DNA of 64,000 nt from Myxococcota bacterium (GTDB lineage Bacteria > Myxococcota_A > UBA796 > JAJRTE01), in contig JAJRTE010000022.1 of assembly GCA_024278455.1 (NCBI GenBank), positions 10,539 to 74,538 on the forward strand. Direction: 5' to 3'. The notes below the pieces were generated by a model, which was not told the origin of the DNA, did not search any database, and was given only the letters and a program-made list of their open reading frames with translations. The position numbers and the translations under genes were made by a program. Of this stretch, positions 30,403 to 59,266 are shown piece after piece. How positions within the stretch are numbered: the first letter of the stretch is position 1; each line of letters begins with the position of its first letter.

Positions 30403-30646
30403 TCTGTCACCATCACCCTGCGTGGACCATGGCGCGTGCCGCGTCGATCGACGCCGCTGGCCCGGCGGTATGCTGCGATTGCTGCGGAAAGACCGCTTAG
30501 GTCTACACGAAGGCGCAGACATCTGCTATTCTGTGAGCATTCGCGGCCCGCAGCCGTATCCCGGCGATGGCCTGACACGTTCGACTCGGCATACAGCGCA
30601 CCGGCACCGACCAGACGACCGGACTCATGAGGAACAGGATCCTGGG

Positions 30647-31738: not shown

Positions 31739-31755
31739 GACGGAGGGGCAGACAG

Positions 31756-37052: not shown

Positions 37053-37229
37053 CGGAGGTTTGCAGCCGCTCGCAGCACGGCCGGGCCAGGGTCGTGTGAC
37101 CGGTTTTAGCACCAGGGAGCACGCAAGCAAAGCAAAACCGAAATGTTCTGGATCGTGCCGCCTGCTCGTGCCATCCTGTAGCCGGGCCGAAGATCGCGGC
37201 AACATTTCGAATTCGGGAGAGGAAATACC

Positions 37230-38084
37230 ATGAAACTCTACAGTATCAGGGGGAATTCTCAACGGCTCGACGGCGGCGCCATGTATGGAAACTGCCCCAG
37301 GGCGCTGTGGTCCCGGTGGAGCCCCCCGGACGAAGCACACCGGATCGATCTTGCCTGTCGCGCGCTGCTCGTCGAGGACGGCGACCTGTTGATTCTCGCC
37401 GAAACCGGCATCGGGGCCTACATGGAGCCACGACTCAGGGAGCGTTTCGGCGTCGTGGAATCGGAGCACATGCTCCTCGAGGCCCTGGACGAAGTAGGGG
37501 TAGCGCCATCGGACATCACCCACGTCGTGCTTTCTCACCTCCATTTCGACCATGCCGGGGGGCTGCTCACGGCCTACCAGGAGGGTGCCGAGCCGGAGTT
37601 GTTGTTCGAGCGGGCGACCTACATGGTCGGCGAACGGGCGTTCGAGCGAGCGAGAGCCCCCCATCTCCGCGACCGGGCGTCGTTCATTCCAGGCCTGACC
37701 GAACGTCTGCGTCGCTCCGGGCGACTGAAGCTTGTCAAGCACGCCCACGACCATTCGTTCGGCCCTCGCTACCGGTTCCGGTTCACGGATGGCCACACCC
37801 CGGGCTCCACCCACCTGGAGATCCTCGAGCCGCGGCATGTTCTTTTCGCAGCGGACCTCATTCCCGGCACCCCGTGGCTCCACCTCCCGATTACGATGGG
37901 CTACGACCGGTTCCCGGAACTGCTGGTAGACGAAAAACGCAGGCTACTCGAGGCAGTAGAGAAGCGGGGGGGGTTCCTGTTCTATACCCACGATCCGAAG
38001 TGGGCCATGAGCCGGGTCGCGCGAGACGAGAAGGGCCGGTTCAGACCGGTCGACGCCATCGAGACCCTGGATGGATGGCCGTAG
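37230..38084 (+). CDS. MBL-fold metallo-hydrolase
   Basis: HLHFDHAGG metallo-beta-lactamase motif; GGGAGAGGA SD 6 nt before ATG. Confidence 0.85.
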
Positions 38085-38261: not shown

Positions 38262-38361
38262 CACCCGGTGATACCTTGCGGGAAGCGCTCGAGACGGGAC
38301 ACACCCGAAATTCATTCGGACGGATACACATCGGCACGAGAATGTGAAAGGAGCTTCGACC

Positions 38362-40404
38362 ATGGCAGACGAACCTCTTGAAAAGAAAGAGGCAACCGAA
38401 GATGAGACGTCCAGCCGGGAGGACTTCGCGTTCCAGACCGAGGTCAACCAGGTCCTCCAACTGCTGGTCCACTCCCTCTACACCAAGCGAGAGGTGTTCC
38501 TGCGCGAACTGGTATCCAATGCGGCGGACGCCTTGAGCAAGGTGCAGTTCGAACTGTTGACCCAACGGGAGGTAGCCTCGAGGGAGGCCGACCTGGAGAT
38601 CCTCGTCGATTTCAACGTCGATGACAGGACCATCACGGTCAGCGACACCGGCGTGGGAATGACTCGAGACGAACTCATCACCAGCCTCGGGACAATCGCC
38701 CATTCCGGCTCGAAGGCGTTTCTCGATGCCATCGAGGCACGGCGCAAGGAAGCGGGTGAAGGCGCGGTGCTGGACCTGATCGGCCAGTTCGGAGTGGGTT
38801 TCTACTCGGTGTTCATGGTCGCCGATCGGGTCGTGGTCGAGTCCCGGTCCATGGAACCCGACGCGCCGGCCCATCGCTGGGTCGCCACCGGTGGCGATTC
38901 GTTCAGCATCGAACCTGCCGGGCGGACCTTGCGCGGCACCACGGTGACCCTCCATCTGAAGGACGACGCCAGCGAATTCCTGTCCAGACATCGGCTCGAA
39001 GAGATCATCAATACCTACTCCAATTTCGTGCCATTCCCGGTGAAGCTCCAGGGGAACGTGGTCAATCGGCAGAAGGCCTTGTGGGCGGTGTCCAAGTCGG
39101 AAATCACCGAGGAGATGTACACCGAGTTCTACGGGCACCTCAACCACACGACCAAGGCGCCCCTGGCGCACGTCCATCTCCAGGCGGATGTGCCTATCCA
39201 GTTCAACGCCATCCTCTACGTGCCTCATGAATCGCCGCTCATGCAGTACTACGCCATCGAGACGCGCCACGGCGTGCGACTGTATGTCAAGCGGATGTTC
39301 ATCCAGGAGAACTGCGAGGAACTCGTCCCGCGCTACCTCCGGTTCCTGGTGGGCGTCGTCGACGTGGACGACCTGCCGCTCAACGTAAGCCGGGAAATGA
39401 TCCAGAAGAACCCCTTGCTGGCCAAGGTGCGATCCAACCTGACGCGCAAGACGTTGAAGCTGCTCCAGGACATCGCATCCCGGGACCCGGAGAAGTATGC
39501 CACGTTCTGGCGGCAGTTCGGTCTCTACCTCAAGGAAGGCGTGAGGGACGACCCGGCGAGCAGCGACACCATTGCGGAACTCCTGCGATTCAACTCGAGC
39601 CACCACGTCGACGACAAGGGGTTGACATCCCTCGCCGAATACGTGGAACGCATGCCGGAAGGCCAGGAGGAGATCTACTACTTCACGGGTCCGAACCGCC
39701 AGACCATCGAGCGCACCCCGCACCTCGAGCAGTTCCGCAAGAAGCACTACGAAGTGCTCTACATGACCGATCCCATCGACCCCCTGGTCGTGCTGGGCCT
39801 CGGCGACTACAAGGGCAAGAAATTCCGCATCATCGACGACCCAAAGCTCGACCTCGGGGCGGGCGACACGAGCGACGAGGGGGGAGACGAGCCGGACATC
39901 GGCAAGGACTTCGTGTCGTTCGCCGGCAAGGTCCTGGGCGACAAGGTGGAGTCTGTCCGCCTGTCCCGCCGCCTGGTGGAGAGTCCGGCCTGCCTCGTCA
40001 ACCCGGAAAACAGCATGAGTTCCGACATGCAGCGGCTGTACAGCATGGTGGACAGGGATTTCAAGTTCAGCCGCAAGATCCTCGAGCTGAACGCCTCCCA
40101 CCCGATCGTCCGGAACCTGAATGCGGCCTTTGCCGGTGTGGTCGGCGACCCGTCAGGCCAGGAGCGGTTGAGGCCCTATGTCGAGAACCTGCTCGACGTG
40201 GCCCTGCTGGCCGAGGGGATCCATCCGAACCCGGCGGACCTGGTGGATGATTTCAACCGGCTGCTCGCCGTGGCGACCGGGACCCTGACCCACGGCCCGG
40301 ACACCTCGAGCGTGGGGGAGCCGGCCCTTTCCCCGGATGAGGAGGCCAAGCCACCAGACCAGGGCGTGGACACCTCGCCGGCCACGGAGGACACGGCCTC
40401 TTGA
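38362..40404 (+). CDS. htpG: molecular chaperone HtpG (Hsp90)
   Basis: HATPase_c Bergerat fold N-domain (LRELVSNAADAL), middle and C-terminal dimerisation domains, 680 aa; AAAGGAG SD 8 nt before ATG 38362. Confidence 0.93.
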   Translation: MADEPLEKKEATEDETSSREDFAFQTEVNQVLQLLVHSLYTKREVFLRELVSNAADALSKVQFELLTQREVASREADLEILVDFNVDDRTITVSDTGVGMTRDELITSLGTIAHSGSKAFLDAIEARRKEAGEGAVLDLIGQFGVGFYSVFMVADRVVVESRSMEPDAPAHRWVATGGDSFSIEPAGRTLRGTTVTLHLKDDASEFLSRHRLEEIINTYSNFVPFPVKLQGNVVNRQKALWAVSKSEITEEMYTEFYGHLNHTTKAPLAHVHLQADVPIQFNAILYVPHESPLMQYYAIETRHGVRLYVKRMFIQENCEELVPRYLRFLVGVVDVDDLPLNVSREMIQKNPLLAKVRSNLTRKTLKLLQDIASRDPEKYATFWRQFGLYLKEGVRDDPASSDTIAELLRFNSSHHVDDKGLTSLAEYVERMPEGQEEIYYFTGPNRQTIERTPHLEQFRKKHYEVLYMTDPIDPLVVLGLGDYKGKKFRIIDDPKLDLGAGDTSDEGGDEPDIGKDFVSFAGKVLGDKVESVRLSRRLVESPACLVNPENSMSSDMQRLYSMVDRDFKFSRKILELNASHPIVRNLNAAFAGVVGDPSGQERLRPYVENLLDVALLAEGIHPNPADLVDDFNRLLAVATGTLTHGPDTSSVGEPALSPDEEAKPPDQGVDTSPATEDTAS

Positions 40405-40521: not shown

Positions 40522-42819
40522 TCAGGGGACCCCGCCGGGAGACCCAGAGCGCGATGCCGGTAGGACTCCCTCGAGACGCGCCGCCTGCTCCACCGATTCG
40601 AAGACGGCGTCCGACGGTTCGGTGAACTCGGTAATGGTGTAGGGATAGACATCGCTGACCGCCGTGGTCCCCAGCACCTCCTCTGCCACGAACCCGAGCA
40701 ACGCCTTGCGCATGGTCGCGACCAGGGCGGAGTCGGTGTCCGGAGCGGCGCAGAACATGTCCGACGGAATCGCGCGCGTCCCGGTCAGAATCTGCACTTT
40801 GCGCTGGAACCCCTGGTCCACGTGGAAGGCCCGCATAAAGGCCTCGGAGTAGACCGCGGCCACATCGCAGCGCCCGGCGAGGAGGTCCATGATGGCCTGC
40901 ACGTGGGCGCCGCTGAACACGACTCGCGAGAACAGCGTGTCCGGGTCGTACCCCTGTTCGCGCAGGTAGAGTCTTGGAAAGAGGTATCCGCTGGTCGAAC
41001 CCCGGTCCACGTAGCAAATGCGCTTGCCCGCCAGGTCCGCCACCGTCTCGATGCCGCTCTCCGCCGGCACGACGAGCAACCCTTGTGACGCGCTGTCATA
41101 TCGTGCATAAGCGACCGGCGTTACATCGGACCGTGCGTGCCGGGCCAGTACATACTGCACCGGTGGGAGCATGCCGAAGTCGTAGGATCCGGCCTCGAGC
41201 CCGGTCCGCAATGCCCGGTAGCTGGGTGCGACCTCCACGTCGATGGGCCGGGCGATACTGGCCTCGAGGTAGCGTAGCAGGGGTGCGAGTTCGCGTGCGG
41301 CGTCGGTGGTCGGGGAGGCGGGATACAGGCCGATTCTCACCACGGGTCCTGCCGGACGCACGGCAGGTGTGGGCATGGTTGCAAGGGTCAGGGCGGTGAC
41401 GAGGATCAGGCCAAGGGCGACCCCCACGGCCGGCGCCTTCCAGCCCACTCTGGCAGCCAACCGCCGGAGCACGCTTGCCCACGGCCGGGCGGCGCGGCCG
41501 AACACGGGCACATCCGGCACACCACCCCGCTCGGCTCCTCTCCCGCCCGTACCAAGGCGATCCACGCCGGCCTGCGCTCGAGACGCGCCCGATTCGGAAG
41601 CCACGAGCCGGGTGTACAGCGCCTCCAGGCGTTCAACGGCCTGCTTCGATGACGGGCGCTCGGCAGCCACTTTCCGGAGGCACTGGTCGATCAGCGCGGC
41701 GAGGTCCTTGGGCAGGTCCCCGGCGACCTGGGAGACCGAGGGCACCGGCTCGAGGCCGGCCACCGCATCCGGGATGTGTTGGAGCGGGACCCCATGATAG
41801 GGACGCCGCCCGGTCACCAACTGGTACAGAACAAGCCCGAAGGCCCACATGTCGGTCTCGGGACCTATCGGCTCCTCCCGCCACTGTTCCGGCGCCATGT
41901 AGGCGGGCGTACCCAGGAATCGGCTCTTCACCGTGGTCGATTCGCCCCCAGCCAGGCTCTGGAGCCCGGACGCGGTGACGCGAACGTCCTCCATCTTCGC
42001 ACCAACGCCGTCGCCGGTGGACGCCAGTCCCTTGGCAAGGCCGAAGTCGAGCACGCGCAACCGGCCGTCAGCGGGCAGCATGATGTTGCCAGGCTTGAGA
42101 TCCCGGTGCAGCACGCCGTGCTGATGTGCTTCGGCGAGCGCTCGAGCAATCGGCAGGCCCAGCCGAATGGCCTCCTCGGCGCTCGGCACGGTCCGGGCCA
42201 TGTGCTCGCGCAGCGTCAAGCCCTCGAGGTACTCGAGCGCCATGTACGGGCGCCCGGCATGCTCCCCGACGGCATAGATGGAGACGATGTGTGGGTGGTT
42301 GAACCGTGCCGTGGTGCGTGCCTCGAGGAGGAAGCGCTGGCGAGTGGCATAGGAGCCGAGGTAGCCCGGGGAGATCACCTTGAGGGCCACGGGCCTGCCG
42401 AGGGTATCGTCTCGAGCCAAGTAGACCTCTCCCATACCGCCCCGGCCGACCAGGCGCTCGACAACGAAGTGATCCACGACGGTGCCCGGGGCCAACGGCG
42501 CCATGCCAGGGGCCGGGGTCGCCAGCGTCCGGGTCACGGTCGCGGCCGAAACCTCCATGCCCGAAGCGGCGGACAGGGTGTCGACGAGCGCCCGGCAACG
42601 CACGCACTGTTGCAGGTGCCGGCCGATGGCAGACGCCTCATCGAGTGGCACGATCCCATCCAGGACCTGCTGGATCGTGTCGGGGTCGAGGTGTACATGA
42701 TCGGCATCGACGGGGGGAGTGTGCTTCCCGGCCTCGTCGCCGGGCTGAGCCGAACATGCGGGCTGCTCGCCCATGTCGATCGGCACGCCCTGTCCTGGTG
42801 CGTCGTCTCGATCTGTCAC
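40522..42819 (-). CDS. Ser/Thr protein kinase with N-terminal zf-HC2 (anti-sigma-like) segment, TM helix and periplasmic PhnD/SsuA-like phosphonate-binding-protein domain
   Basis: Kinase subdomains GRGGMGEVY, ALK, HRDLKPGNIM, DFGLAK, APE; N-terminal H..C..C motif; C-terminal 300 aa matches PBP phosphonate-binding fold; GTG 42819 has GAGAGG SD (ORF track TTG 42834). Confidence 0.8.
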   Translation of the reverse strand: MTDRDDAPGQGVPIDMGEQPACSAQPGDEAGKHTPPVDADHVHLDPDTIQQVLDGIVPLDEASAIGRHLQQCVRCRALVDTLSAASGMEVSAATVTRTLATPAPGMAPLAPGTVVDHFVVERLVGRGGMGEVYLARDDTLGRPVALKVISPGYLGSYATRQRFLLEARTTARFNHPHIVSIYAVGEHAGRPYMALEYLEGLTLREHMARTVPSAEEAIRLGLPIARALAEAHQHGVLHRDLKPGNIMLPADGRLRVLDFGLAKGLASTGDGVGAKMEDVRVTASGLQSLAGGESTTVKSRFLGTPAYMAPEQWREEPIGPETDMWAFGLVLYQLVTGRRPYHGVPLQHIPDAVAGLEPVPSVSQVAGDLPKDLAALIDQCLRKVAAERPSSKQAVERLEALYTRLVASESGASRAQAGVDRLGTGGRGAERGGVPDVPVFGRAARPWASVLRRLAARVGWKAPAVGVALGLILVTALTLATMPTPAVRPAGPVVRIGLYPASPTTDAARELAPLLRYLEASIARPIDVEVAPSYRALRTGLEAGSYDFGMLPPVQYVLARHARSDVTPVAYARYDSASQGLLVVPAESGIETVADLAGKRICYVDRGSTSGYLFPRLYLREQGYDPDTLFSRVVFSGAHVQAIMDLLAGRCDVAAVYSEAFMRAFHVDQGFQRKVQILTGTRAIPSDMFCAAPDTDSALVATMRKALLGFVAEEVLGTTAVSDVYPYTITEFTEPSDAVFESVEQAARLEGVLPASRSGSPGGVP

Positions 42820-43001
42820 GCGTTCCTCTCGCAAGCTGTCCGGGGGCGGCCCGGTTGCCGAAGTGTCATGCGGTCTACCTGCCGGTTTCAGGCTAACACT
42901 CCGGCTCGGTGCCAGTCAAGGTGGAGGGCGGCGCCGACGAACGCGTACCGCACCCTGTTCAGGAAACGGGGTGAGCTTGCCGAACCGGAAACTGGTCTGG
43001 C

Positions 43002-43030
43002 TTGCCGTCCGTTCGAGTCCGCGCCATAAT
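43002..43030 (+). promoter_or_regulatory. possible promoter TTGCCG-17-CATAAT upstream of OPT transporter gene
   Basis: Hexamers with 17-nt spacing in the STK/OPT divergent intergenic region. Confidence 0.25.
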
Positions 43031-43140
43031 CACGGGACCATGCCGGGGGCTTCGAGGCGCTCGAGGCGGTTCGCGGGGCGGAGCGGACCGGAAGGAATCG
43101 AGGCATGCCGGGAGGGTGATCCAGAAAACAGGAGTGTGTC

Positions 43141-45048
43141 ATGCCAACCCCCTACGTCGCGGCGGAAAGCGCGACTCGAGACTTCTCCCTCAAGGCCGTC
43201 GTGTTCGGCGTGCTGTTCGGCGCCATCTTCGGTTCGGCCAATGCCTACCTCGGGCTCAAGGTCGGGCTGACCATCAGCACCGCGATACCGCTTGCGGTGA
43301 TATCTGTTGCGTTGTTCAAGTTTCTGCAGCCGGTGCTTGGACCGTCGTCGATTCTCGAGTGCAACATCACCCAGACCGCGGGGTCCTCGAGTTCGTCCCT
43401 GGCGTCGGGGGTCATCTTCACTATCCCGGCCCTGTTCATGTGGGGGTTTGCGCCGAGCCTGCTTCAAATGTCGCTCCTGGCAGCGCTTGGGGGCGTGCTC
43501 GGCATCCTGTTCATGATCCCGTTGCGGCGATTCCTCATCGTGCGCGAACACGCCACCCTGCCCTACCCGGAGGGCACGGCGGCCGCTCAGGTCCTGATCG
43601 CCGCCGACCAGGGCGGGGCGACGGCGCGAGCGGTGTTCACCGGGCTCGGCATCGGAGCCATATACAAGGCGTTCCTCAGCTTCCTCCGGGTCATCCCGGA
43701 CGCGGTCGCGATTCGGCTGCCGGTCATCCCCAAGGCCGTCGTGGAACTCGAGACCATGCCGGCGCTCCTGGGCGTTGGGTATATTCTCAACTACCGGGTC
43801 TCCGCGATCATGGTCGCGGGCGGACTGCTGTCGTGGCTGGTGCTGATCCCTGTCATCGCCTGGTTCGGCGCCGGCTCCCAGGTGCCGCTGTTCCCCGAAA
43901 CGGTCCAGGTGATCTCGGACATGAGCGCATCGGCCTTGTGGAGCCGCTACGTCCGGTACATCGGCGCGGGCGCCGTGGCAGCGGCCGGGATTCTGACCGT
44001 CATCAAGTCTGTCCCGACCATGTACGACTCGTTGCGCGTTGGACTGGCCGGGCTGCGAGGAGGCACGGGACAAGAGCGGGCGGCGGGCACGGCGCGAACG
44101 GATCGCGACTTGCCCATGACCGTGGTGTTCGGTGGGGTCGCGCTGGTCATCGCGGTGCTCACCCTGCTGCCCAACGTCATCGGGGTCCACACGAACCTGG
44201 GGATGCGCGCCGTGGCGGCCGTCTGTATCGCCGTGTTCGCGTTCATGTTCGTCACCGTGTCGTCGCGTATCGTGGGATTGATCGGCGTCTCGTCCAATCC
44301 CACGTCGGGCATGACCATCGTGACACTCCTGGGTGTCAGCCTGGTATTCAGCCTCCTGGGCTGGACGGACGATTTCGGCAAGGCCACCGCGGTTACCATC
44401 GGGACGGTGGTGTGCGTGGCCGCGTCGATCGCCGGCGACATCTCCCAGGATCTCAAGAGCGGGTTCCTCCTCGGGGCGACACCCGCGCGGCAGCAAACAG
44501 CCGAACTGCTCGGCGCCGTCTTTTCCGCCGCGTTCGTCTGCCTGGCCGTATGGGTCCTGGGAGAAACCTTCACGTTCGGTTCCGAGGCGCTCCCCGCGCC
44601 CCAGGCCACGCTCATGAAGACCGTGGTCGATGGCGTCCTCTCGGCGAACCTGCCATGGGGACTGGTGTTGACCGGCGCCGCCATCGCGATAGTGGTGGAA
44701 CTGCTGGGACTTCCGTCACTGCCGTTCGCCGTCGGGGTCTATCTCCCCCTATCGGCGATGACGCCGGTGTTCTTGGGGGGCGTGGTCAGGCACATCGTGG
44801 AGAGAAGCAAGAAGACGGCACGTGAGGCAAGTGCGGACGGCGACGCCCGAGAACAGGGTATCTTGCTGAGTTCGGGACTGATTGCCGGGGAAGGCATCAT
44901 GGGGGTCGCCCTGGCGGTATTCGCCTTCGTCTCGGGGACCAAGCCCACCGGCATCGGCATGGCGTTGGAAGGCATCCCCGGGCAGATCGCCTCGTTCGGG
45001 CTGTTCCTCCTCCTCGCTGCCTACCTCTACCGCGTCGGGCGGCGGTGA
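43141..45048 (+). CDS. OPT-family oligopeptide transporter
   Basis: 635 aa, about 16 TM helices, OPT family conserved blocks; AGGAG SD 6 nt upstream. Confidence 0.8.
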   Translation: MPTPYVAAESATRDFSLKAVVFGVLFGAIFGSANAYLGLKVGLTISTAIPLAVISVALFKFLQPVLGPSSILECNITQTAGSSSSSLASGVIFTIPALFMWGFAPSLLQMSLLAALGGVLGILFMIPLRRFLIVREHATLPYPEGTAAAQVLIAADQGGATARAVFTGLGIGAIYKAFLSFLRVIPDAVAIRLPVIPKAVVELETMPALLGVGYILNYRVSAIMVAGGLLSWLVLIPVIAWFGAGSQVPLFPETVQVISDMSASALWSRYVRYIGAGAVAAAGILTVIKSVPTMYDSLRVGLAGLRGGTGQERAAGTARTDRDLPMTVVFGGVALVIAVLTLLPNVIGVHTNLGMRAVAAVCIAVFAFMFVTVSSRIVGLIGVSSNPTSGMTIVTLLGVSLVFSLLGWTDDFGKATAVTIGTVVCVAASIAGDISQDLKSGFLLGATPARQQTAELLGAVFSAAFVCLAVWVLGETFTFGSEALPAPQATLMKTVVDGVLSANLPWGLVLTGAAIAIVVELLGLPSLPFAVGVYLPLSAMTPVFLGGVVRHIVERSKKTAREASADGDAREQGILLSSGLIAGEGIMGVALAVFAFVSGTKPTGIGMALEGIPGQIASFGLFLLLAAYLYRVGRR

Positions 45049-45090
45049 TGGCGCAGGAGCAGCAACCGCCGGGAGGAGGGCGGCACGCCA

Positions 45091-45876
45091 TCAGGCATGG
45101 AGCACGACCGGATACTGCCTCAGGGCGGACTTCAGCTTGCGACGTGCCCTGAGTTCGATCTGGTGGATCCGCTGCCGAGAGAGGTGGAGGTACTCCCCAA
45201 TCTCCTTCAGCGTCCAGGCCCGGTCGCCCAGGTACCGCCGTTCGATCACCTCCCGCTCCTGCGACGTGAGGTCCTCGAGCGCCTCTCGCAGCCACGCCTG
45301 GTGATGCCTCGATGCCTCGCGATCCATGTACTCCGACTCCTGGGTCGGGCGGTCGTCGGCAATCGTGTCGTACATCGTCTTCCGGGTGCTCCACGCCGGG
45401 GTCTGATCGAGGGAAATCTCCACCATCCGCGACCATGCTCCGTGCGATGCCGGTGCCTGCCGCCCCCCTCCCCCGGTGGTGCGCTCCGCATTCGACAGCG
45501 CCGTGGTCACGCGACTCGCCTTGTACCTGCGCTGCAGGAACCGCTGGATGTAGGCGCGAATCCACCAGGAAGCGTAGGTTACCAACCGCACATTCCGCTC
45601 TGGATCGAACCGCTCCACAGCCTGGAGCAGGCCCAGGTTGCCTTCCTGGACCAGTTCGGCAAGTCCGACTTCGGGATGCGTGTACTGCACCGCTATCTTC
45701 ACGACCGCCCGGAGGTTGGACCGGATCAACCGATGGGCAGCGTCCAGGTCTCGCGTGTCACGGTACTTCCGCGCGAGCACCACCTCCTCCTCTCGAGACA
45801 GCGGTTCGCAGTCTCGCAATCCCTTGAGGTAGTGGGTCAGTGGGGTCGCTGGCAGCTTCCGCTCTCGAGGGGTCAT
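45091..45876 (-). CDS. sigma-70 family RNA polymerase sigma factor (RpoH-like/group 3 architecture, no RpoH box)
   Basis: Region 2 (LVQEGNLGLLQAVERFDPERNVRLVTYASWWIRAYI) and region 4 HTH (TLKEIGEYLHLSRQRIHQIELRARRKL). Confidence 0.8.
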   Translation of the reverse strand: MTPRERKLPATPLTHYLKGLRDCEPLSREEEVVLARKYRDTRDLDAAHRLIRSNLRAVVKIAVQYTHPEVGLAELVQEGNLGLLQAVERFDPERNVRLVTYASWWIRAYIQRFLQRRYKASRVTTALSNAERTTGGGGRQAPASHGAWSRMVEISLDQTPAWSTRKTMYDTIADDRPTQESEYMDREASRHHQAWLREALEDLTSQEREVIERRYLGDRAWTLKEIGEYLHLSRQRIHQIELRARRKLKSALRQYPVVLHA

Positions 45877-46231
45877 CGTGGTATCCTCCGCGTGTTCGGT
45901 TTCCTGGTCTGCCTTCTACCTGTGCATGGTGTGGACCAGGAACCCGAGTCGTGGGTTTTTGGTAGCCTCCCCTACAGTTCCCTGGCGGATACCACGATCT
46001 GCCTGCCGATCTTGCAGATCCCGGCGCGCCCGACCTGTCTCCAGGTGTCTCGATGAGACGGTCCGGAACCGATTTGAGACGCCCGAGACACTCGAACGTC
46101 AGGCAGGTCGCACCCGGCCCGCCTCGAGACCGCCGGCGCGATGTGTACGATTTTGGGGGTACCTGGGCTCCGGCGGGGAACAACAGGTCGGGAGGTCTCC
46201 CCGGCCGAAAGCCCGGCTAGGTTGGCGGGCT

Positions 46232-46882
46232 TCAGAAATGGAAATTCGAGCTGCCGGCTTCTTGCTGGGAGTTGAACAGTTCCTGGATCTCCCGCTCCGA
46301 CAGATCCGACAGGCCGGACAGGAGCATGGCGACGTTGTCCTTCTCGAGGAGCTTCACCATGTAGTTCACGTATACGCGCAAGGTCGGGGCCGTGATGCCG
46401 TCCTCGAGGGGCAGGGTGATGATCGCCCACACCTCGCCGTCGGAACTATCCCAGCTATACTTGAGGAACTGGTGTTCGAAGTTGAGGTTCATCATGTAGC
46501 TCAACATCATGAGGTTGATCAGCATTCTCTCTTCGGACTGGTTGTCGAGGCTTACGGTGCCGACATCGGGTGCGACGATGTTCAACTGGTCTCCCTCGGC
46601 GGCGTGCAGCACGAGGCGGTGCTTGGCGTCTTCCCCCGCCACGGAGATGATGAAAAGGTCGTCCTTGCGGTCGAACTCCCAGCCAAGCCGGCGAATATGG
46701 TCGCCCAGCACCTCGGGGTCGACCGAAGGAGGACAACTGCCGCTCATCCCGCCCGCCTGACAGTTGCTGAGGTCCCTGGTGCATGTCCTGTAGTCTTGGT
46801 TGCATTGATCTACGGTGTGTTGCAACGTCGTGCAACAGCCTGACGCCGCAAGCGCCACGCTCAAGCAAACCAGCCATTTCAT
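46232..46882 (-). CDS. Cys-rich lipoprotein with YbjN-like (T3SS-chaperone-like) domain
   Basis: Lipobox LAASGC, 7 Cys in first 45 mature residues, C-terminal YbjN-like pattern; local GC lower (about 58%) than surroundings. Confidence 0.6.
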   Translation of the reverse strand: MKWLVCLSVALAASGCCTTLQHTVDQCNQDYRTCTRDLSNCQAGGMSGSCPPSVDPEVLGDHIRRLGWEFDRKDDLFIISVAGEDAKHRLVLHAAEGDQLNIVAPDVGTVSLDNQSEERMLINLMMLSYMMNLNFEHQFLKYSWDSSDGEVWAIITLPLEDGITAPTLRVYVNYMVKLLEKDNVAMLLSGLSDLSEREIQELFNSQQEAGSSNFHF

Positions 46883-47200
46883 GGAGTCACCTCAAAAGGC
46901 TCGTGGTGGAAAGGAGCACACGCCAGGACCGGGAATGGCACGAGCGCGAAGGGTCTGTTCAGCCCTTTTCGCGAGCGTACCACGCTGCCAACCTCGAGAT
47001 CAAGGGTTGCATGGGAAATGGTGGCCGGACGCCCGGTGCCGCGGCAACCCCGCCCATGGGGACTTGCCCCTGGGCGGGCTGGCGGCGGGCCTCGCAAGGT
47101 CGGGGAAAAACTCATCAAACGCCCGGTGAAGGCCCGGGCTGTGGACAGAAGCACCACTCCAAGCTACGCTATGGTCACAACCCTGCACGACGAGGTGATC

Positions 47201-48238
47201 ATGAGCCACTCGAGAGCCTTCCTGGTATGCATGATGCTCGCCTCGCCTGGCGTGGCCATGGCGGCGGGACTTACACAACACCAGTTCATGGCGGACATTG
47301 CTCGCGACCTGGTCACGAATGCGGATCTGGAGGCATGTCTCTCCGAGAACCGGAACGCCTACCTGATGGGCGCGCCTTTCCCGGACACGGGCTGGGTCGT
47401 GTTCGACGACCCCTTGTCGGAAGATGCCCACAGCCCGGCCTTCATCAGCGCGTTCGTCGAGCACATCCGCGAAACCTATCCCTACCCCTACGCGGAGCAG
47501 CAGCGCCTCATTTCCTTCATGATGGGCGTCGCGTCCCACGTCGCCGATGACCCGCCGTACCACTCGGGATTCATCCAGGCCGTTGCCGAGCACGACTTCC
47601 GCGGCGACTACGACCTGGCCCACACCATGTGCGACGCCGGTCTCGAGTTCATTGCCATCGTCGACCACGACCGGTGGGAGGACGTGCCGGAGTACTGGCT
47701 GCCTCTCCGGGACATCGAGCAGGTGTATGCGCGGCTGGGGTCCTCCTATGACCGTTGGGAGTTCGTCCTGGGCAACATGATCCTGATCGTCGCGGAAGAG
47801 GCGGAACGCTGGGTGGCGTCGCCGTTGTACCGGCCGCTGGAGCGGGTCATGCCCTGGGCGGTGGCCAACTACTACACCTATCCGGACGGCGGCCTGCTCA
47901 ACGGCGGGGAGATCGCTGCCGGCTACTACCTGGACACGTGGCGGGCGCTTTTCGCGTCGCCGGGCGCCGCCAGGCTCGGCCCGCTGGCTGGAAGTGGACT
48001 CGCCGCCGATGATCGGGCCCGCATTCACCGTGACCCGGCGATCGCCTTCGCCAGGCGAAGCCTAGAGGATGGCGTCGTCCGCATCGAGGTCTCCTACGAC
48101 TCCGACGGGAGCGTCACGCTACGTGGTCCGGTCATCCTGGACATGGATGCCTGGACTGGTGGAGTGAACGAACTGGCGCGGGCGTTTTCCGGCGCAATGC
48201 AACAGGGCGGTGTCCGGGGCGGAACGAGGACGCCGTGA
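47201..48238 (+). CDS. secreted hypothetical protein, possibly Zn-dependent phospholipase C / P1-nuclease superfamily
   Basis: Signal peptide MSHSRAFLVCMMLASPGVAMA; His/Asp clusters (SHVADDPPYH, AEHDFRGDYDLAH) reminiscent of PLC Zn ligands; GAGGTGA SD; ORF track opens 47018. Confidence 0.4.
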   Translation: MSHSRAFLVCMMLASPGVAMAAGLTQHQFMADIARDLVTNADLEACLSENRNAYLMGAPFPDTGWVVFDDPLSEDAHSPAFISAFVEHIRETYPYPYAEQQRLISFMMGVASHVADDPPYHSGFIQAVAEHDFRGDYDLAHTMCDAGLEFIAIVDHDRWEDVPEYWLPLRDIEQVYARLGSSYDRWEFVLGNMILIVAEEAERWVASPLYRPLERVMPWAVANYYTYPDGGLLNGGEIAAGYYLDTWRALFASPGAARLGPLAGSGLAADDRARIHRDPAIAFARRSLEDGVVRIEVSYDSDGSVTLRGPVILDMDAWTGGVNELARAFSGAMQQGGVRGGTRTP

Positions 48239-48368
48239 CCGTTCGACCGGCGTTCCGGCGTGGCCGTTCGAGGTGGGCCCCTGCCGTTTCGCGCCGGAGG
48301 TGCCAGCGCACCTGCCGCGTTGACGCCTCGTGCGTCGATGGCGAGAACACGCGCAAGGGGGACATCGC

Positions 48369-49325
48369 ATGACCGAGGGGCCAGTGCCGGGCGACACCCG
48401 GGAAACCGTGTACCCTTTCGAGCGGAAGAAGAGGACGAGGCGCCAGCGGGAGGAGGCGGAGGCGATCAGGGAGATCCTGGGGGCCCGACTCGGTCTCCCC
48501 GCCCTGGACACCCTGCCTCCCGAGGTCCGTGACCTCCTGCTCAAGTATACCACCGCATGCCACCTCAACATCGCCTGGTACCAGTCGCAGCGGGAGCGGG
48601 AAATCAGGCTCTACCGCGGGTTCTTCGCCCTGACCGTACTCCTGGTCGCAGGAACGCCCGCCGCCGTCACCTTCCTCTCCACGTCGCTCGACGCCTCGCT
48701 TGCTCCCCTGGTGACCGCCGTTCTCGCGGGCGTGTTCGGCACGCTCAAGTCTCTCGCCGCCATCCTCGAGCAACGCAAGCTCGTGGGGCTGTTCTGGAAA
48801 GCGGAAGCCGATCTGAAGACGGACCTCTACGCATTCGAGGACCGGTGGCGCGGGAAGGTCCTCGAGGAGCCTGGTTTCGGCGAGGAGCCTGTCACCGGCG
48901 TGCGGGTGAAAAAGGACTTCATTCGCGGCCTCCACCTGCAGATCCAGAAGGCGGAGCAGACGCGAAGGGAGGAACAGGACAAGTTCTTCTCACGGTTCGA
49001 TCGCGTGCCGTTCGACGTTACCGAGGTGATTTCTGGAGGAACGCGCCGCGCGGAGGGTGTGGTGAAGACCTTCTCCTCGAGCGAGAAGAGTCCGTCCGAA
49101 CTCGAGGGGGAGGTCGAGCGGGCGCGTTTGAAGCTTTCCTACATCGAACAGCGGCTGGCTGCGGCCGGTGCGCGGTTGGCAGCCCTCGAGGGAGACACGA
49201 CGACGCTGGGCGACACCAGCCGCCAGGTCCTGGTGGACGAGATCGAGCGCTTGCATGCCCTTCGGTTCGACACGGAAACGGAGATTTCGGAGAAGCTGGC
49301 ACGGGTCGGCCGGCTGCATTCGTGA
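48369..49325 (+). CDS. SLATT/DUF4231-like 2TM protein with C-terminal coiled-coil
   Basis: WY...REIRLYRGFF, two TM helices (ALTVLLVAGTPAAVTFL; LAPLVTAVLAGVFGTL), then LFWKAEADLKTDLYAFEDRW block typical of SLATT-clan proteins; AAGGGGGA SD; stop overlaps next gene region. Confidence 0.55.
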   Translation: MTEGPVPGDTRETVYPFERKKRTRRQREEAEAIREILGARLGLPALDTLPPEVRDLLLKYTTACHLNIAWYQSQREREIRLYRGFFALTVLLVAGTPAAVTFLSTSLDASLAPLVTAVLAGVFGTLKSLAAILEQRKLVGLFWKAEADLKTDLYAFEDRWRGKVLEEPGFGEEPVTGVRVKKDFIRGLHLQIQKAEQTRREEQDKFFSRFDRVPFDVTEVISGGTRRAEGVVKTFSSSEKSPSELEGEVERARLKLSYIEQRLAAAGARLAALEGDTTTLGDTSRQVLVDEIERLHALRFDTETEISEKLARVGRLHS

Positions 49326-49327
49326 CC

Positions 49328-50851
49328 ATGCGCGTACTGTTCGTTACCTCCCTCACCGGTGCCATCACGCCGCGGCACCCGCTCAGGTCGCCGGAACAGA
49401 TACAGTTCGGCATATCCTACCTTTCGGCCGTACTCCGCCAGCACGGCCACGAGACGCGCCTCGTGGTCCTCAGCCACGCCTGGGGCCGACGCAACCTCCA
49501 CCTCGTGAACCAGGTCGCACGCGACTTCCTCCCGCAACTGGTGCTCTTGACCGCCGTCACGTCGGAATTCCCGTTCATCTCGACCATGGCGTCCCGGTTG
49601 CGGAAGCGGTTTCCCGGCGCCTACCTCGTGCTCGGCGGACCGCACGCCTCCCTGCGTCCGGATGAGGCCATCCAGGCCGACGTCGACGCCGTCTGCGTGG
49701 GTGAGGGGGAGGAGGCGGTGGTTCAACTCGCGACTCAGATCGAGACCTTGAACGGACCACACGCCGTCGCGGGGTTGTGGATGAAGGTGTCCGGCCGGAT
49801 CGTGCGCTACCCCCCCGGCTTGCGGGTCGAGGACCTCGACACCCTGCCCTACCCGGACCGGGACATCTGGACGCCCTGGATCGATCCCACCTCACACGGG
49901 CGCCCCGCCGTGCTCCTCGGCAGGGGATGTCCATTCCTGTGCACCTACTGCTGCAACCACGCGCTGAGACGCACCGCACCGGGCACCTACGTCCGACTTC
50001 GACGCCCGGACGCCATCGTGGAGGAAATCGAGAACCTCGTGTCCCGATCGACACGGGTGGCGGACCCACCGCGAGAAATCGCCCTCGAAGTCGAATCCAT
50101 CGATCTGGATCGGCGCTGGGCCCTCGAGCTTTGCCACCGGCTCGAACGGTTCAACGCTGGCCAGGAAACCCCGGTGGGGTTTGCCACCAATTTCCGGGTA
50201 CGCCGGCGCATCGACCCGGAACCTCTCTTCCGTGCCATGGCTCGAGCCGGGTTTCGTGGGGTCACCATCGGGCTCGAGGCCGGTAGCGACCGGATTCGGA
50301 GGGAGGTGCTGCGCCGTGCCTGCACGACCCAGGACGTCCTCGACGGGGTGCGGTGTGCGCGGCGACACGGCTTGCGGGTGGTTCTCCAGAACATGATAGG
50401 GGTCCCGGGCGAGACCGAGGAGGACGCGATCGAGACTGCGCTGCTCAACCGGGTGCTGCGTCCGGACCGGTACTACGTGAGCATCTTCCACCCGTACCCG
50501 GGGACAGAACTCCATGCAACCTGCCTCGAGCGGGGCCTCGAGGTGCGACCGCTGCGTGGCGGAAGGGAACGAAGCGTCCCGGTCATCGATCCGCCCGAGT
50601 TTCCCGCGAGACGCATCCGTCGCACCTACGTCTGGTTCGACCGGCACGTCCAGGAGGGCGTTGCACCGTGGCGGCAGATAGCGCCTCGAGTGTTCAAGGC
50701 ATGGGTGAGAACGCACCCACGCCTCGACGAAGCAGCTCAGCGTATCAGGGCGATGCTGTCATGGCGCGAGGTGCGCCTGGGCCCACGCCGCGGTCACGTT
50801 CCCGCACGCGCACATCGGCCGGCACGCCTCTCGAGGCCCGGGGGGGCATGA
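49328..50851 (+). CDS. B12-binding domain radical SAM enzyme (class B rSAM, likely methyltransferase)
   Basis: N-terminal cobalamin-binding Rossmann-like domain, CPFLCTYC CxxxCxxC cluster motif; ATG 2 nt after upstream stop. Confidence 0.85.
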   Translation: MRVLFVTSLTGAITPRHPLRSPEQIQFGISYLSAVLRQHGHETRLVVLSHAWGRRNLHLVNQVARDFLPQLVLLTAVTSEFPFISTMASRLRKRFPGAYLVLGGPHASLRPDEAIQADVDAVCVGEGEEAVVQLATQIETLNGPHAVAGLWMKVSGRIVRYPPGLRVEDLDTLPYPDRDIWTPWIDPTSHGRPAVLLGRGCPFLCTYCCNHALRRTAPGTYVRLRRPDAIVEEIENLVSRSTRVADPPREIALEVESIDLDRRWALELCHRLERFNAGQETPVGFATNFRVRRRIDPEPLFRAMARAGFRGVTIGLEAGSDRIRREVLRRACTTQDVLDGVRCARRHGLRVVLQNMIGVPGETEEDAIETALLNRVLRPDRYYVSIFHPYPGTELHATCLERGLEVRPLRGGRERSVPVIDPPEFPARRIRRTYVWFDRHVQEGVAPWRQIAPRVFKAWVRTHPRLDEAAQRIRAMLSWREVRLGPRRGHVPARAHRPARLSRPGGA

Positions 50852-50852
50852 G

Positions 50853-53969: not shown

Positions 53970-54119
53970 CCCGACCGCGTTGGATGATGTTGCCGCAAAA
54001 GATGCAGCACATGCCAACCGAGGTGTTATCTTTCTACCAGGAGCGCGGCGGCCGTCGATGGGACGTCCTTGGAGACAGCGGTCTTCGACGCCGATACGGC
54101 CTCCCGCGCAGCTTCGAGG

Positions 54120-56981: not shown

Positions 56982-57082
56982 CCGTACCACCGGCATTGTC
57001 ACCTTCCCGTGATGTGGTATCATGGGACGCATGTTGCCGTGTCGCCGTGGAGGCGATGGAAACCACGAAGGAAGGAGTGTCC

Positions 57083-59266
<2,184 letters not shown>

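What the first reader, a model, noticed from the sequence alone, without database searches (positions are those of the whole stretch)
40522..45876. Ser/Thr kinase with anti-sigma-like zinc finger and periplasmic phosphonate-binding-protein sensor, next to an OPT transporter and a sigma factor
The kinase fuses three parts: an N-terminal H..C..C zf-HC2-like segment, as found in ECF anti-sigma factors; a complete Hanks kinase domain; and, after a TM helix, a PhnD/SsuA-type periplasmic binding domain. Its neighbours are an OPT oligopeptide transporter (divergent) and a group-3/RpoH-like sigma factor (convergent with the transporter). Together they suggest a ligand-sensing kinase/anti-sigma hybrid controlling that sigma factor.
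Basis: partly seen in the sequence, partly recalled or inferred. Interest (0 to 1): 0.5.

Follow-up and report, generated by a model that had tools for sequence, protein, structure and literature searches.

The report
Receptor kinase with anti-sigma-like zinc finger
A myxobacterial membrane Ser/Thr kinase really does combine an anti-sigma-type zinc finger, a kinase domain and a periplasmic phosphite/phosphonate-type binding domain, but comparative evidence links such kinases to a different (ECF-type) sigma family, not to the heat-shock-like sigma factor next door.

Summary
Gene 40522..42786(-) encodes a 754-aa protein with four parts: an N-terminal H-x24-H-x3-C-x2-C three-helix zinc finger, an intact Hanks kinase domain, one TM helix, and a periplasmic PtxB/PhnD-type binding domain. 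The zinc finger is below Pfam's cut-off on its own. A profile of 25 homologous kinase N-termini, however, hits the solved anti-sigma factors RslA, DdvA, ChrR and RsiW. The OPT transporter and an RpoH-like sigma are also real.

In the closest related genome, the OPT-sigma block is syntenic with the window, but the kinase ortholog lies on another contig, so the kinase/OPT junction is a rearrangement breakpoint. None of five kinase-PBP loci has an RpoH-like sigma or an OPT gene nearby.

Zinc-finger kinases of this family instead sit within 3 kb of a TIGR03001 ("Myxococcales family 1") ECF-type sigma in 6 of 8 loci. This was true of 0 of 7 Myxococcota loci with kinases that lack the finger. No such sigma is in the 64-kb window, so this kinase is an orphan.

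The most likely mechanism is inferred, not shown: periplasmic oxyanion sensing, with the anti-sigma-like domain docking an ECF-type sigma encoded elsewhere. The triple fusion is rare, with 3 clusters among 1.84 billion representatives. Interest is moderate.

The parts
40522..42786 (-). Receptor Ser/Thr kinase gene (754 aa from GTG 42786; the ORF is open up to TTG 42834). Identical to database protein P0001.
42535..42699 (-). N-terminal ZAS-like (zf-HC2) three-helix zinc finger, residues ~30-84. Candidate ligands are H32 (or H30), H57 (42616-42618), C61 (42604-42606) and C64 (42595-42597).
   Evidence: Pfam zf-HC2 16.8 bits, below cut-off. The motif is invariant in 27 homologs. The N-terminus profile hits RslA, DdvA, ChrR and RsiW. 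AF2 helices 35-43, 48-60 and 62-84. Foldseek matches are ZAS anti-sigma chains only.
41632..42465 (-). Hanks-type kinase domain, residues ~108-385, with all catalytic motifs: G-loop GRGGMGEV (114), VALK (133), HRDLKPGN (227), DFG (247), APE (298). The activation segment is long, about 45 aa.
   Evidence: Pfam Pkinase E 1.9e-46. Motif positions. Closest solved kinases are StkP and PknB, E ~1e-40.
41374..41436 (-). Single transmembrane helix, residues ~451-471, preceded by an Arg/Lys-rich segment. This places the N-terminus inside and the C-terminal domain in the periplasm.
   Evidence: It is the only hydrophobic peak, Kyte-Doolittle mean 2.2.
40606..41334 (-). Periplasmic PtxB/PhnD-type substrate-binding sensor domain, residues ~485-727. 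It keeps the STS...H oxyanion motif (GSTSGY at 596, SGAHV at 625) and the Tyr of PSYRAL (521). The phosphite-capping Tyr is replaced by an invariant Asp (IPSD at 673).
   Evidence: PF12974 E 5.3e-51 and TIGR01098 143 bits, above its cut-off of 112. PDB profile hits: PtxB 1e-31, Te_PtxB 1.4e-28, AioX 3.6e-23, HtxB, ArrX 1.6e-18. Binding-site residues taken from PMC5700983.
43141..45048 (+). OPT-family oligopeptide transporter, divergent from the kinase. It is a neighbour and not part of the kinase system.
   Evidence: PF03169 E 9.6e-96; TIGR00733 358 bits. It stays with the sigma, not with the kinase, in GCA_964418585.1.
45091..45876 (-). RpoH-like (sigma-32-related) sigma-70 family factor of 261 aa, with regions 1.2, 2 and 4. 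It is a neighbour and not linked to the kinase by conserved synteny.
42787..43140 (.). Divergent intergenic region between the kinase and OPT; this is the synteny breakpoint. Upstream of the kinase it holds a TTGACT-N17-TTAGCCTGA element that is conserved upstream of the ortholog in L001.

Best explanation
The gene encodes a single-pass receptor Ser/Thr kinase of a Myxococcota family.

**Shown**
- It has four parts: a cytoplasmic N-terminal three-helix H-H-C-C zinc finger homologous to the ZAS (class I) anti-sigma domain, a catalytically intact Hanks kinase domain, one TM helix, and a periplasmic PtxB/PhnD/AioX-type binding domain.
- The binding domain keeps the oxyanion-binding STS-H core but lacks the residues that define phosphite specificity.
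- Kinases with this N-terminal finger are usually encoded next to a TIGR03001 ECF-type sigma factor.
- This kinase and its closest ortholog are not next to such a sigma.
- Its adjacency to OPT and the RpoH-like sigma is not conserved.

**Inferred**
- A small periplasmic oxyanion (a phosph(on)ate- or arsenic-oxyanion-like ligand, identity unknown) closes the binding domain and changes kinase oligomerisation or activity.
- The ZAS-like domain acts as a built-in docking or sequestering site for an ECF-type sigma of the TIGR03001 kind, encoded elsewhere in this genome.
- That sigma is then released and/or phosphorylated, by analogy with PknT-EcfP and PknS-EcfK.
- The OPT transporter and the RpoH-like sigma are unrelated neighbours brought next to the kinase by rearrangement.
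For: - **Architecture:**
- **ZAS homology:**
- **Sensor homology and binding-site mapping:**
- **Sigma association.** ZAS-type kinases P0003, P0011, P0053, P0090 and P0111, plus metagenome locus L153, each have a sigma within 3 kb. Five of these sigmas scored above the TIGR03001 cut-off (191-223 bits against 154.6). The L153 sigma was identified only by tblastn and by an HMM built from those five. They are homologous to one another (35-48% identity).
- **Controls.** Kinases without the finger had no such sigma: 0 of 7 in Myxococcota loci and 0 of about 90 in metagenome loci. Fisher p = 0.007 and 2e-8 respectively.
- **No linkage to the neighbouring sigma:**
- **No TIGR03001-like ORF** in the window, L001 or L083, by HMM at E <= 10.
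- **Precedent.** ECF sigmas are directly phosphorylated by adjacent STKs (PMC7826278, PMC8999054). PknS carries an 83-aa N-terminal helical segment of unknown role (PMC13147305).
Against: - No binding or phosphorylation has been tested.
- In this protein's own clade only 1 of 4 members (P0003) has the adjacent TIGR03001 sigma. The partner for the window protein is therefore hypothetical, and the finger may have another role here.
- The domain has three helices and lacks the fourth helix of classical class I anti-sigma domains.
- The Pfam zf-HC2 score is below the gathering cut-off.
- The TIGR03001 sigmas keep acidic residues where region 2.2's DAED motif would lie (by-eye reading, no structure-based alignment). 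The EcfP-style mechanism of phosphate replacing missing charge therefore need not apply.
- The ZAS-less controls from metagenomes are mostly other taxa, so that contrast is partly confounded by phylogeny.
- The ligand is unknown.
Confidence: 0.55

Rival explanations
1. One reading: the kinase is an anti-sigma/kinase hybrid that sequesters or phosphorylates the adjacent RpoH-like sigma (45091..45876), perhaps together with the OPT transporter.
For: - The genes are close: 2.3 kb apart with one gene between them.
- The N-terminal domain really is anti-sigma-like.
- No ECF-type partner is present in the 64-kb window, so the partner slot is open.
- A weak sigma-32-like match (CTGAAA-N12-CCGCAT) lies upstream of the kinase, but 11 such matches occur in the window by the same criterion.
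Against: - The OPT-sigma block is conserved without the kinase in the closest genome, and the kinase ortholog lies elsewhere.
- None of five kinase-PBP loci has such a sigma.
- Two more distant homologs of the sigma (56% and 50% identity) sit in unrelated contexts without kinases.
- The ZAS structures recovered all pair with ECF sigmas.
- The family's recurrent neighbour is TIGR03001, and a profile of it does not even detect the RpoH-like sigma at E <= 10.
Confidence: 0.07
2. The zinc finger is not a sigma-binding module in this protein. It acts as a redox- or zinc-sensing, dimerisation or auto-inhibitory element of the kinase. The kinase signals only by phosphorylating other substrates, as most multi-substrate Hanks kinases do.
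For: - Three of the four members of the ZAS-kinase-PBP clade lack an adjacent sigma.
- The domain is truncated to three helices.
- The same N-terminal finger is combined with many unrelated C-terminal modules: TPR, WD40, STAND NTPase, SBP_bac_5, PEGA and FGE-sulfatase.
- ZAS domains are known redox sensors (PMC8999054).
Against: - Finger-bearing kinases co-occur strongly with TIGR03001 sigma genes (6 of 8 loci against 0 of 7).
- Sequence homology points specifically to sigma-binding ASDs.
Confidence: 0.3
3. The protein is simply a phosphite or phosphonate nutrient sensor that regulates phosphorus acquisition, and the N-terminal motif is incidental.
For: - The best solved relatives are the phosphite binders PtxB and Te_PtxB (E 1e-31 and 1e-28).
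- The STS-H motif is conserved.
Against: - The capping Tyr and hinge Tyr that give phosphite specificity are replaced (Asp in IPSD; the Tyr is missing in SASQG).
- No phn, ptx or pst genes lie in the window or in the ortholog loci.
- The arsenite and arsenate sensors AioX and ArrX are almost equally close.
- The N-terminal motif is invariant across the family.
Confidence: 0.08

Closest known systems
ZAS / class I anti-sigma domains (Pfam zf-HC2, PF13490): RslA, ChrR, RsiW, M. xanthus DdvA
   Same: - Same H/C-x24-H-x3-C-x2-C ligand spacing.
- Same helix-turn-helix-helix core.
- The family profile hits these proteins at E 2e-7 to 1e-2, and they are the only fold matches.
- DdvA shows that a ZAS domain can head a large multidomain transmembrane protein (8rot hit; PMC11506125).
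   Different: - Here the domain is fused directly to a Hanks kinase.
- It has three helices, not four.
- It scores below Pfam's cut-off.
- In this locus it has no adjacent ECF sigma.
- Sigma binding is untested.
ECF sigma / Ser-Thr kinase pairs: PknT-EcfP (Vibrio parahaemolyticus) and PknS-EcfK (Xanthomonas citri), group ECF43 and other kinase-associated ECF groups
   Same: - A transmembrane receptor Hanks kinase with a periplasmic sensor is encoded next to an ECF-type sigma and no separate anti-sigma (PMC7826278, PMC8999054, PMC13147305).
- Relatives of the window kinase show exactly this gene pairing.
- PknS also has an N-terminal helical extension of unknown role.
   Different: - The partner family here is TIGR03001 (Myxococcales family 1), whose place in the ECF group numbering I could not determine.
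- It appears to keep acidic region-2.2 residues, unlike ECF43.
- The probable PknS chain 9eed is not matched by the ZAS profile, and its N-terminal residues 1-67 do not align with the window protein.
- The window kinase itself has no adjacent sigma.
PtxB / PhnD / HtxB / AioX / ArrX periplasmic binding proteins (PF12974)
   Same: - Full-length domain homology (E 1e-31 to 1e-18).
- Conserved STS-H oxyanion motif.
- AioX and ArrX are precedents for this fold acting as a signalling sensor rather than a transport component (PMC8050422).
   Different: - Here the domain is covalently fused to the kinase through one TM helix, rather than being a free protein that docks on a histidine kinase or an ABC transporter.
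- The phosphite-specific Tyr residues are not conserved.
- The ligand is unknown.
Myxococcota kinase-PBP fusions without the zinc finger (kinase subfamily with GGMAEIYLAR and VHRDVSPHN motifs; L004, L005, L007, P0311, P0320 and others)
   Same: The same type of periplasmic PhnD-like sensor (about 40% identity) sits behind one TM helix of a Hanks kinase.
   Different: - A different kinase subfamily.
- No N-terminal ZAS-like domain.
- No sigma gene nearby.
RpoH (sigma-32) family, for the neighbouring sigma
   Same: The best NCBIfam matches are the RpoH models, and regions 1.2, 2 and 4 are present.
   Different: - The score of 178 bits is far below the RpoH cut-offs of 241-323.
- There is no region 3 Pfam hit.
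- No RpoH-box-like motif was found by a strict regular expression.

Membership tests
Hanks-type (eukaryotic-like) Ser/Thr protein kinase | Pkinase domain above the Pfam cut-off, with G-loop, VAxK lysine, HRDxKxxN catalytic loop, DFG and APE motifs | tested here: met
   PF00069 159 bits against a cut-off of 31.7. Motifs GRGGMGEV, VALK, HRDLKPGN, DFGLAK and APEQW are all present.
zf-HC2 / ZAS class I anti-sigma domain | Pfam PF13490 gathering score reached | tested here: not met
   16.8 bits against 22.2 for the window protein. Orthologs score 18.1, 21.9 and 16.2 bits. Several more distant homologs do carry a precomputed PF13490 hit.
zf-HC2 / ZAS class I anti-sigma domain | Zinc-ligand signature H/C-x23-26-H-x3-C-x2-C | tested here: met
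   H32-x24-H57-x3-C61-x2-C64. The same register occurs in 27 homologs, and H57, C61 and C64 are invariant.
zf-HC2 / ZAS class I anti-sigma domain | Detectable homology to experimentally characterised anti-sigma domains | tested here: met
   The profile of 25 kinase N-termini hits RslA at 2.3e-7, DdvA at 2.1e-6, ChrR at 1.8e-4 and RsiW at 0.014.
zf-HC2 / ZAS class I anti-sigma domain | Four-helix ASD fold (helices I-III plus helix IV) | tested here: inconclusive
   AF2 predicts only three helices (35-43, 48-60, 62-84) followed by a low-confidence linker. Foldseek matches are ZAS anti-sigma chains only, but at E >= 1.
zf-HC2 / ZAS class I anti-sigma domain | Binds zinc and a cognate ECF sigma factor, usually encoded adjacently | not testable with these tools
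   No ECF sigma is in the window. Relatives have an adjacent TIGR03001 sigma in 6 of 8 loci. Binding itself needs experiment.
PhnD/PtxB phosphonate-phosphite binding protein family (PF12974 / TIGR01098) | Domain score above the curated cut-offs | tested here: met
   PF12974 173.8 bits against 27, and TIGR01098 143 bits against 112. The equivalog TIGR03431 PhnD is not reached: 107 bits against 261.
PhnD/PtxB phosphonate-phosphite binding protein family (PF12974 / TIGR01098) | STS-H oxyanion-binding motif, plus Tyr55-equivalent | tested here: met
   GSTSGY, SGAHV and PSYRAL align with S130, T131, S132, H160 and Y55 of Te_PtxB.
PtxB-type phosphite specificity | Capping Tyr (Te_PtxB Y208) and hinge Tyr (Y100) | tested here: not met
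   Y208 aligns with the invariant Asp of IPSD. The hinge Tyr falls in a gap (SASQG). Both were mapped by hand from the alignment, using residues from PMC5700983.
STK-regulated ECF sigma systems (ECF43-like) | Kinase gene adjacent to an ECF-type sigma gene, with no separate anti-sigma | tested here: not met
   This is not met for the window locus: the HMM of TIGR03001-type sigmas finds nothing in 64 kb. It is met for relatives L002, L089, L090, L091, L092 and L153.
RpoH (sigma-32), for the neighbouring sigma 45091..45876 | NCBIfam RpoH equivalog or subfamily cut-off, and RpoH box | tested here: not met
   TIGR02392 scores 178 bits against 323, and NF005143 scores 178 against 241. A strict regular expression found no RpoH-box-like motif.
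OPT oligopeptide transporter, for the neighbour 43141..45048 | TIGR00733 / PF03169 cut-offs | tested here: met
   358 bits against 182.5, and 322 bits against 25.8.

The most novel reading that the evidence does not exclude
The N-terminal ZAS-like fingers of Myxococcota Hanks kinases may be genuine, built-in anti-sigma domains. One polypeptide would then sense a periplasmic ligand, hold an ECF-type (TIGR03001) sigma, and release or activate it by phosphorylation. That would merge the 'anti-sigma' and 'Ser/Thr kinase' routes of ECF control, which the literature I could read treats as alternatives. In this window an orphaned member, with an oxyanion-binding sensor, would act in trans on a sigma encoded elsewhere or, least likely, would have been rewired to the adjacent RpoH-like sigma.
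Probability: 0.35. Interest if true: 0.65.

Novelty: new variant of a known kind. Interest (0 to 1): 0.42.

Why it matters
ECF sigma factors next to Ser/Thr kinases are described as lacking anti-sigma factors and as being controlled by direct phosphorylation (PMC7826278, PMC8999054). If the kinases of the large Myxococcota family carry the anti-sigma domain themselves, several things follow.
- It would explain how kinase and sigma find each other.
- It would suggest a combined mechanism of sequestration plus phosphorylation.
- It would give a simple sequence rule for pairing kinases with sigma factors in genomes that hold about a hundred of each.

The window protein adds a defined, probably small-oxyanion, periplasmic input domain. 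That makes it an attractive but orphan test case. For annotating this locus, the practical message is negative: the kinase, the OPT transporter and the RpoH-like sigma should not be annotated as one system.

Tried and rejected
- **ECF partner in the window.** I searched with tblastn using the L002 sigma and with an HMM of five TIGR03001 sigmas over all six-frame ORFs. Neither found anything. Pfam annotation of most other window genes showed housekeeping genes and no second sigma.
- **Sensor domain search in the 5.8-billion-protein index.** It returned only 16 weak PhnD-like hits and oddly did not return P0001-P0004, so I did not use it for counting. The exhaustive profile search replaced it.
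- **Metagenome scan for ZAS-kinase loci.** It returned mostly finger-less kinases from other taxa, with only one ZAS locus (L153). It serves as a negative control rather than as extra positives.
- **Sigma-32-type promoter search.** Nothing was found upstream of htpG, dnaK or the sigma. One weak match lies upstream of the kinase, at the chance level of 11 per window.
- **Rest of the 78-kb contig.** The look-up through the last gene failed because the start codon did not match the record. I did not pursue it.
- **Literature.** Searches for an explicit description of zf-HC2-kinase fusions or of TIGR03001 found none in the held library. Perez et al. 2008 (the myxobacterial kinome paper) is not held, so prior description cannot be excluded.
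- **AlphaFold of a kinase-N-terminus/sigma chimera.** I rejected this because the tool returns no inter-domain error or contact information, and chimeric sequences are not accepted.

Full report
**1. What is there**

The window is high-GC (about 65%) chromosomal DNA of a Myxococcota-like organism. Pfam annotation of the genes gives glyA, nrdR, the rib operon, nusA, infB, dprA, xerC, a DnaJ/TPR protein, dnaK, a large membrane protein and htpG. These are followed by the three genes of the finding and a conserved block of PLC, radical SAM and acyltransferase genes.

The kinase ORF runs from 42834 (TTG) to 40522 on the minus strand. The identical public protein P0001 starts at GTG 42786 and has 754 aa.

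Pfam and NCBIfam confirm most of the annotation.
- The kinase has a complete Hanks domain (E 1.9e-46) and a PF12974 Phosphonate-bd domain (E 5.3e-51; TIGR01098 is above its cut-off).
- The divergent neighbour is an OPT transporter (E 9.6e-96).
- The next gene is a sigma-70 family protein whose best models are RpoH, but it scores far below their cut-offs (178 bits against 241-323). It has regions 1.2, 2 and 4, and no region 3 hit.

All kinase catalytic motifs are present. There is one hydrophobic helix (residues 451-471) after an Arg/Lys-rich stretch. The finger and kinase are therefore cytoplasmic and the binding domain periplasmic.

**2. Is the zinc finger real?**

On its own it is sub-threshold: zf-HC2 scores 16.8 bits against a cut-off of 22.2, E 0.0076. 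Its three full-length orthologs score 16-22 bits. The comparative evidence is nevertheless strong.
- Among the 120 best kinase homologs, 27 carry [C/H]-x24-H-x3-C-x2-C in exactly the same register, ahead of the glycine loop.
- In an alignment of those 27 proteins, H57, C61 and C64 are invariant. Nearly all the other invariant columns lie in the kinase domain.
- A profile built from 25 such N-termini, searched against all PDB sequences, returns M. tuberculosis RslA (E 2.3e-7), M. xanthus DdvA (2.1e-6), ChrR (1.8e-4) and RsiW (0.014).
- AlphaFold2 with that alignment gives three helices (35-43, 48-60, 62-84), with block-mean pLDDT of 92-94 over residues 31-70.
- Foldseek against the PDB returns nine matches. 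All are chains of the ChrR, RsiW and RslA complexes, each individually weak (E >= 1) as expected for a 50-residue domain.

I conclude that the N-terminus is a homolog of the ZAS class I anti-sigma domain, truncated to three helices. The ligand set here is H-H-C-C, whereas most relatives are C-H-C-C.

**3. The sensor domain**

A profile of the periplasmic domain hits several solved proteins over the full domain: P. stutzeri PtxB (1e-31), Trichodesmium PtxB (1.4e-28), the arsenite sensor AioX (3.6e-23), HtxB, the arsenate sensor ArrX (1.6e-18) and, more distantly, E. coli PhnD.

I mapped the published binding-site residues (PMC5700983) onto the alignment. The STS...H motif and the Tyr55 equivalent are conserved (GSTSGY, SGAHV, PSYRAL). 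The capping tyrosine that confers phosphite specificity aligns with an invariant Asp (IPSD), and the hinge tyrosine is absent.

The domain therefore probably binds a small oxyanion. Phosphite specificity is not supported, and the ligand is unknown. AioX and ArrX show that this fold is used as a signalling sensor (PMC8050422).

**4. How common is the architecture?**

An exhaustive profile search of 1.84 billion representatives finds only three 50%-identity clusters covering finger, kinase and sensor in a single stretch: P0001 (with P0002), P0003 and P0004.

About nine further representatives are kinase-sensor fusions from a different kinase subfamily without the finger. The genome scan gave three more such loci: L004, L005 and L007.

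The finger itself is combined with many other C-terminal modules in Myxococcota kinases: TPR, WD40, STAND NTPase, SBP_bac_5, PEGA and FGE-sulfatase. The triple fusion is thus a rare shuffle of two common modules.

**5. Does it control the neighbouring sigma?**

The evidence says no.
- MAG GCA_964418585.1 carries the closest kinase ortholog (P0002, 64% identical). Its contig 107 contains OPT (87%), the sigma (73%), the 216-aa protein (70%), PLC, a hypothetical gene, radical SAM and an acyltransferase, in the same order as the window.
- In that contig the gene beyond OPT is a 1387-aa NB-ARC protein.
- The kinase ortholog lies in the middle of a 160-kb contig, between a signal peptidase and a MopE-like gene, with no sigma or OPT within 10 kb.
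- The kinase/OPT intergenic region is therefore a synteny breakpoint.
- None of the five kinase-sensor loci has an RpoH-like sigma, OPT or HtpG nearby.
- Two more distant homologs of the sigma (56% and 50% identity) sit beside an M24 peptidase and a PfkB kinase, with no Ser/Thr kinase.
- All ZAS structures recovered pair with ECF (group 4) sigmas.

**6. What do the relatives pair with?**

P0003, a member of the same clade, has a divergent 282-aa sigma-like gene 17 bp upstream. I then looked up four further finger-bearing kinases chosen only for long contigs: P0011, P0053, P0090 and P0111. Each has a homologous 276-365-aa gene. It is adjacent and divergent in two cases, adjacent and convergent in one, and 2.8 kb away in one.

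All five proteins score 191-223 bits on TIGR03001, "RNA polymerase sigma-70 factor, Myxococcales family 1" (cut-off 154.6), and also pass the ECF superfamily model. They are 35-48% identical to each other.

The metagenome scan returned 80 loci. Exactly one kinase among them has the finger, and it is the only locus with such a sigma, 318 bp away and divergent. That sigma was identified by tblastn and by an HMM of the five, not by the NCBIfam model.

In total, 6 of 8 finger-bearing kinases with adequate flanks have this sigma within 3 kb. The comparison groups are 0 of 7 finger-less kinases in Myxococcota loci and 0 of about 90 in metagenome loci. Fisher p is 0.007 and 2e-8 respectively, and the second contrast is confounded by taxonomy.

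An HMM of these sigmas finds no ORF in the 64-kb window, in L001 or in L083 at E <= 10. It does not even detect the RpoH-like sigma. The window kinase and its closest ortholog are therefore orphans. P0004's short contig shows a methyltransferase upstream.

**7. Mechanism**

The architecture, the homologies and the gene associations above are shown. The rest is inferred.
- The periplasmic domain closes on an oxyanion ligand and modulates kinase activity.
- The cytoplasmic ZAS-like domain docks an ECF-type sigma of the TIGR03001 kind.
- That sigma is sequestered and/or phosphorylated and then released.

This extends the known logic of ECF sigma/kinase pairs such as PknT-EcfP and PknS-EcfK (PMC7826278, PMC8999054, PMC13147305). 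[quoted passage not shown] Here the anti-sigma-like module would be part of the kinase.

Several caveats apply.
- Helix IV of the canonical domain is missing.
- The TIGR03001 sigmas seem to keep acidic residues at region 2.2 (by eye), so the EcfP charge-replacement mechanism need not apply.
- PknS's own N-terminal extension is not detectably ZAS-like.
- Only one of four members of the window protein's own clade has the adjacent sigma.

The main rival, at about 0.3, is that in this clade the finger serves another role, such as redox or zinc sensing, dimerisation or autoinhibition.

**8. Novelty and score**

Every module and the kinase-ECF pairing are known kinds. What may be new is recognising the kinase N-terminus as an anti-sigma homolog that tracks a specific ECF family, and the rare combination with a PtxB/AioX-like sensor.

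I found no description of this in the searchable literature. Key older papers are not held, so prior knowledge cannot be excluded.

Overall this is a new variant of a known kind, of moderate interest (0.42).

Noticed in passing
window 30371-33555, 38344-40404, 45091-45876: Chaperone genes cluster near the RpoH-like sigma: a DnaJ-domain/TPR protein, DnaK and HtpG. The sigma may therefore be a heat-shock-type regulator, but no sigma-32-type promoter consensus was found upstream of these genes.
   Followed up: partly
window ~42905-42945 (- strand); L001 ~9880-9915: A TTGAC(T/G)-N17-(T/A)TAGCCTGA element is conserved upstream of the kinase and of its 64% ortholog, although the rest of the two upstream regions differs. 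It is a candidate housekeeping-type promoter, which would argue against dependence on an alternative sigma.
   Followed up: partly
window 43141-52028; L083 1882-10918: The block OPT, RpoH-like sigma, 216-aa Cys-rich putative lipoprotein (faint YbjN hit in the ortholog), Zn-dependent phospholipase C, hypothetical protein, B12-binding radical SAM and Acyl_transf_3 is syntenic between the window and GCA_964418585.1 (57-87% protein identity).
   Followed up: yes
L002:9136-9984, L089:2868-3965, L090:5792-6718, L091:1408-2238, L092:8360-9301, L153:2985-3803: The TIGR03001 ECF-type sigmas beside finger-bearing kinases carry a conserved C-terminal extension of about 40 aa (EFxS(I/L)xRLxxSQLDxSL) and variable N-terminal extensions. 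Such extensions are regulatory in other ECF groups, and their role here is unknown.
   Followed up: no
L004, L005, L007; proteins P0311, P0320, P0363, P0374, P0378, P0385, P0389, P0393: The same PhnD-like periplasmic sensor (about 40% identity) is fused to a different Hanks kinase subfamily (GGMAEIYLAR, LPHLAEE, VHRDVSPHN) that lacks the zinc finger. The sensor module has therefore moved between kinase lineages in Myxococcota.
   Followed up: partly
window 34818-37883 (-): A 1021-aa protein has only a weak Dpy19 (GT-C glycosyltransferase-like) hit, E 4.6e-8. The ortholog locus L001 also has a large PMT/PTPS_related GT-C protein within 8 kb of the kinase, but the two are not detectably homologous by tblastn.
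   Followed up: partly
window 8597-10627 (-): A 676-aa protein combines MshEN, a response-regulator receiver and DUF4388 (PATAN-like) domains, next to a HEAT-repeat protein and an HD-domain (HD_5) protein. This is a signalling cluster unrelated to the finding.
   Followed up: no
window 54069-59266: A hybrid histidine kinase (GAF-PAS-HATPase-REC) is followed by a prolyl oligopeptidase. The longest ORFs overlap by about 250 nt, so the peptidase start is probably further downstream.
   Followed up: no
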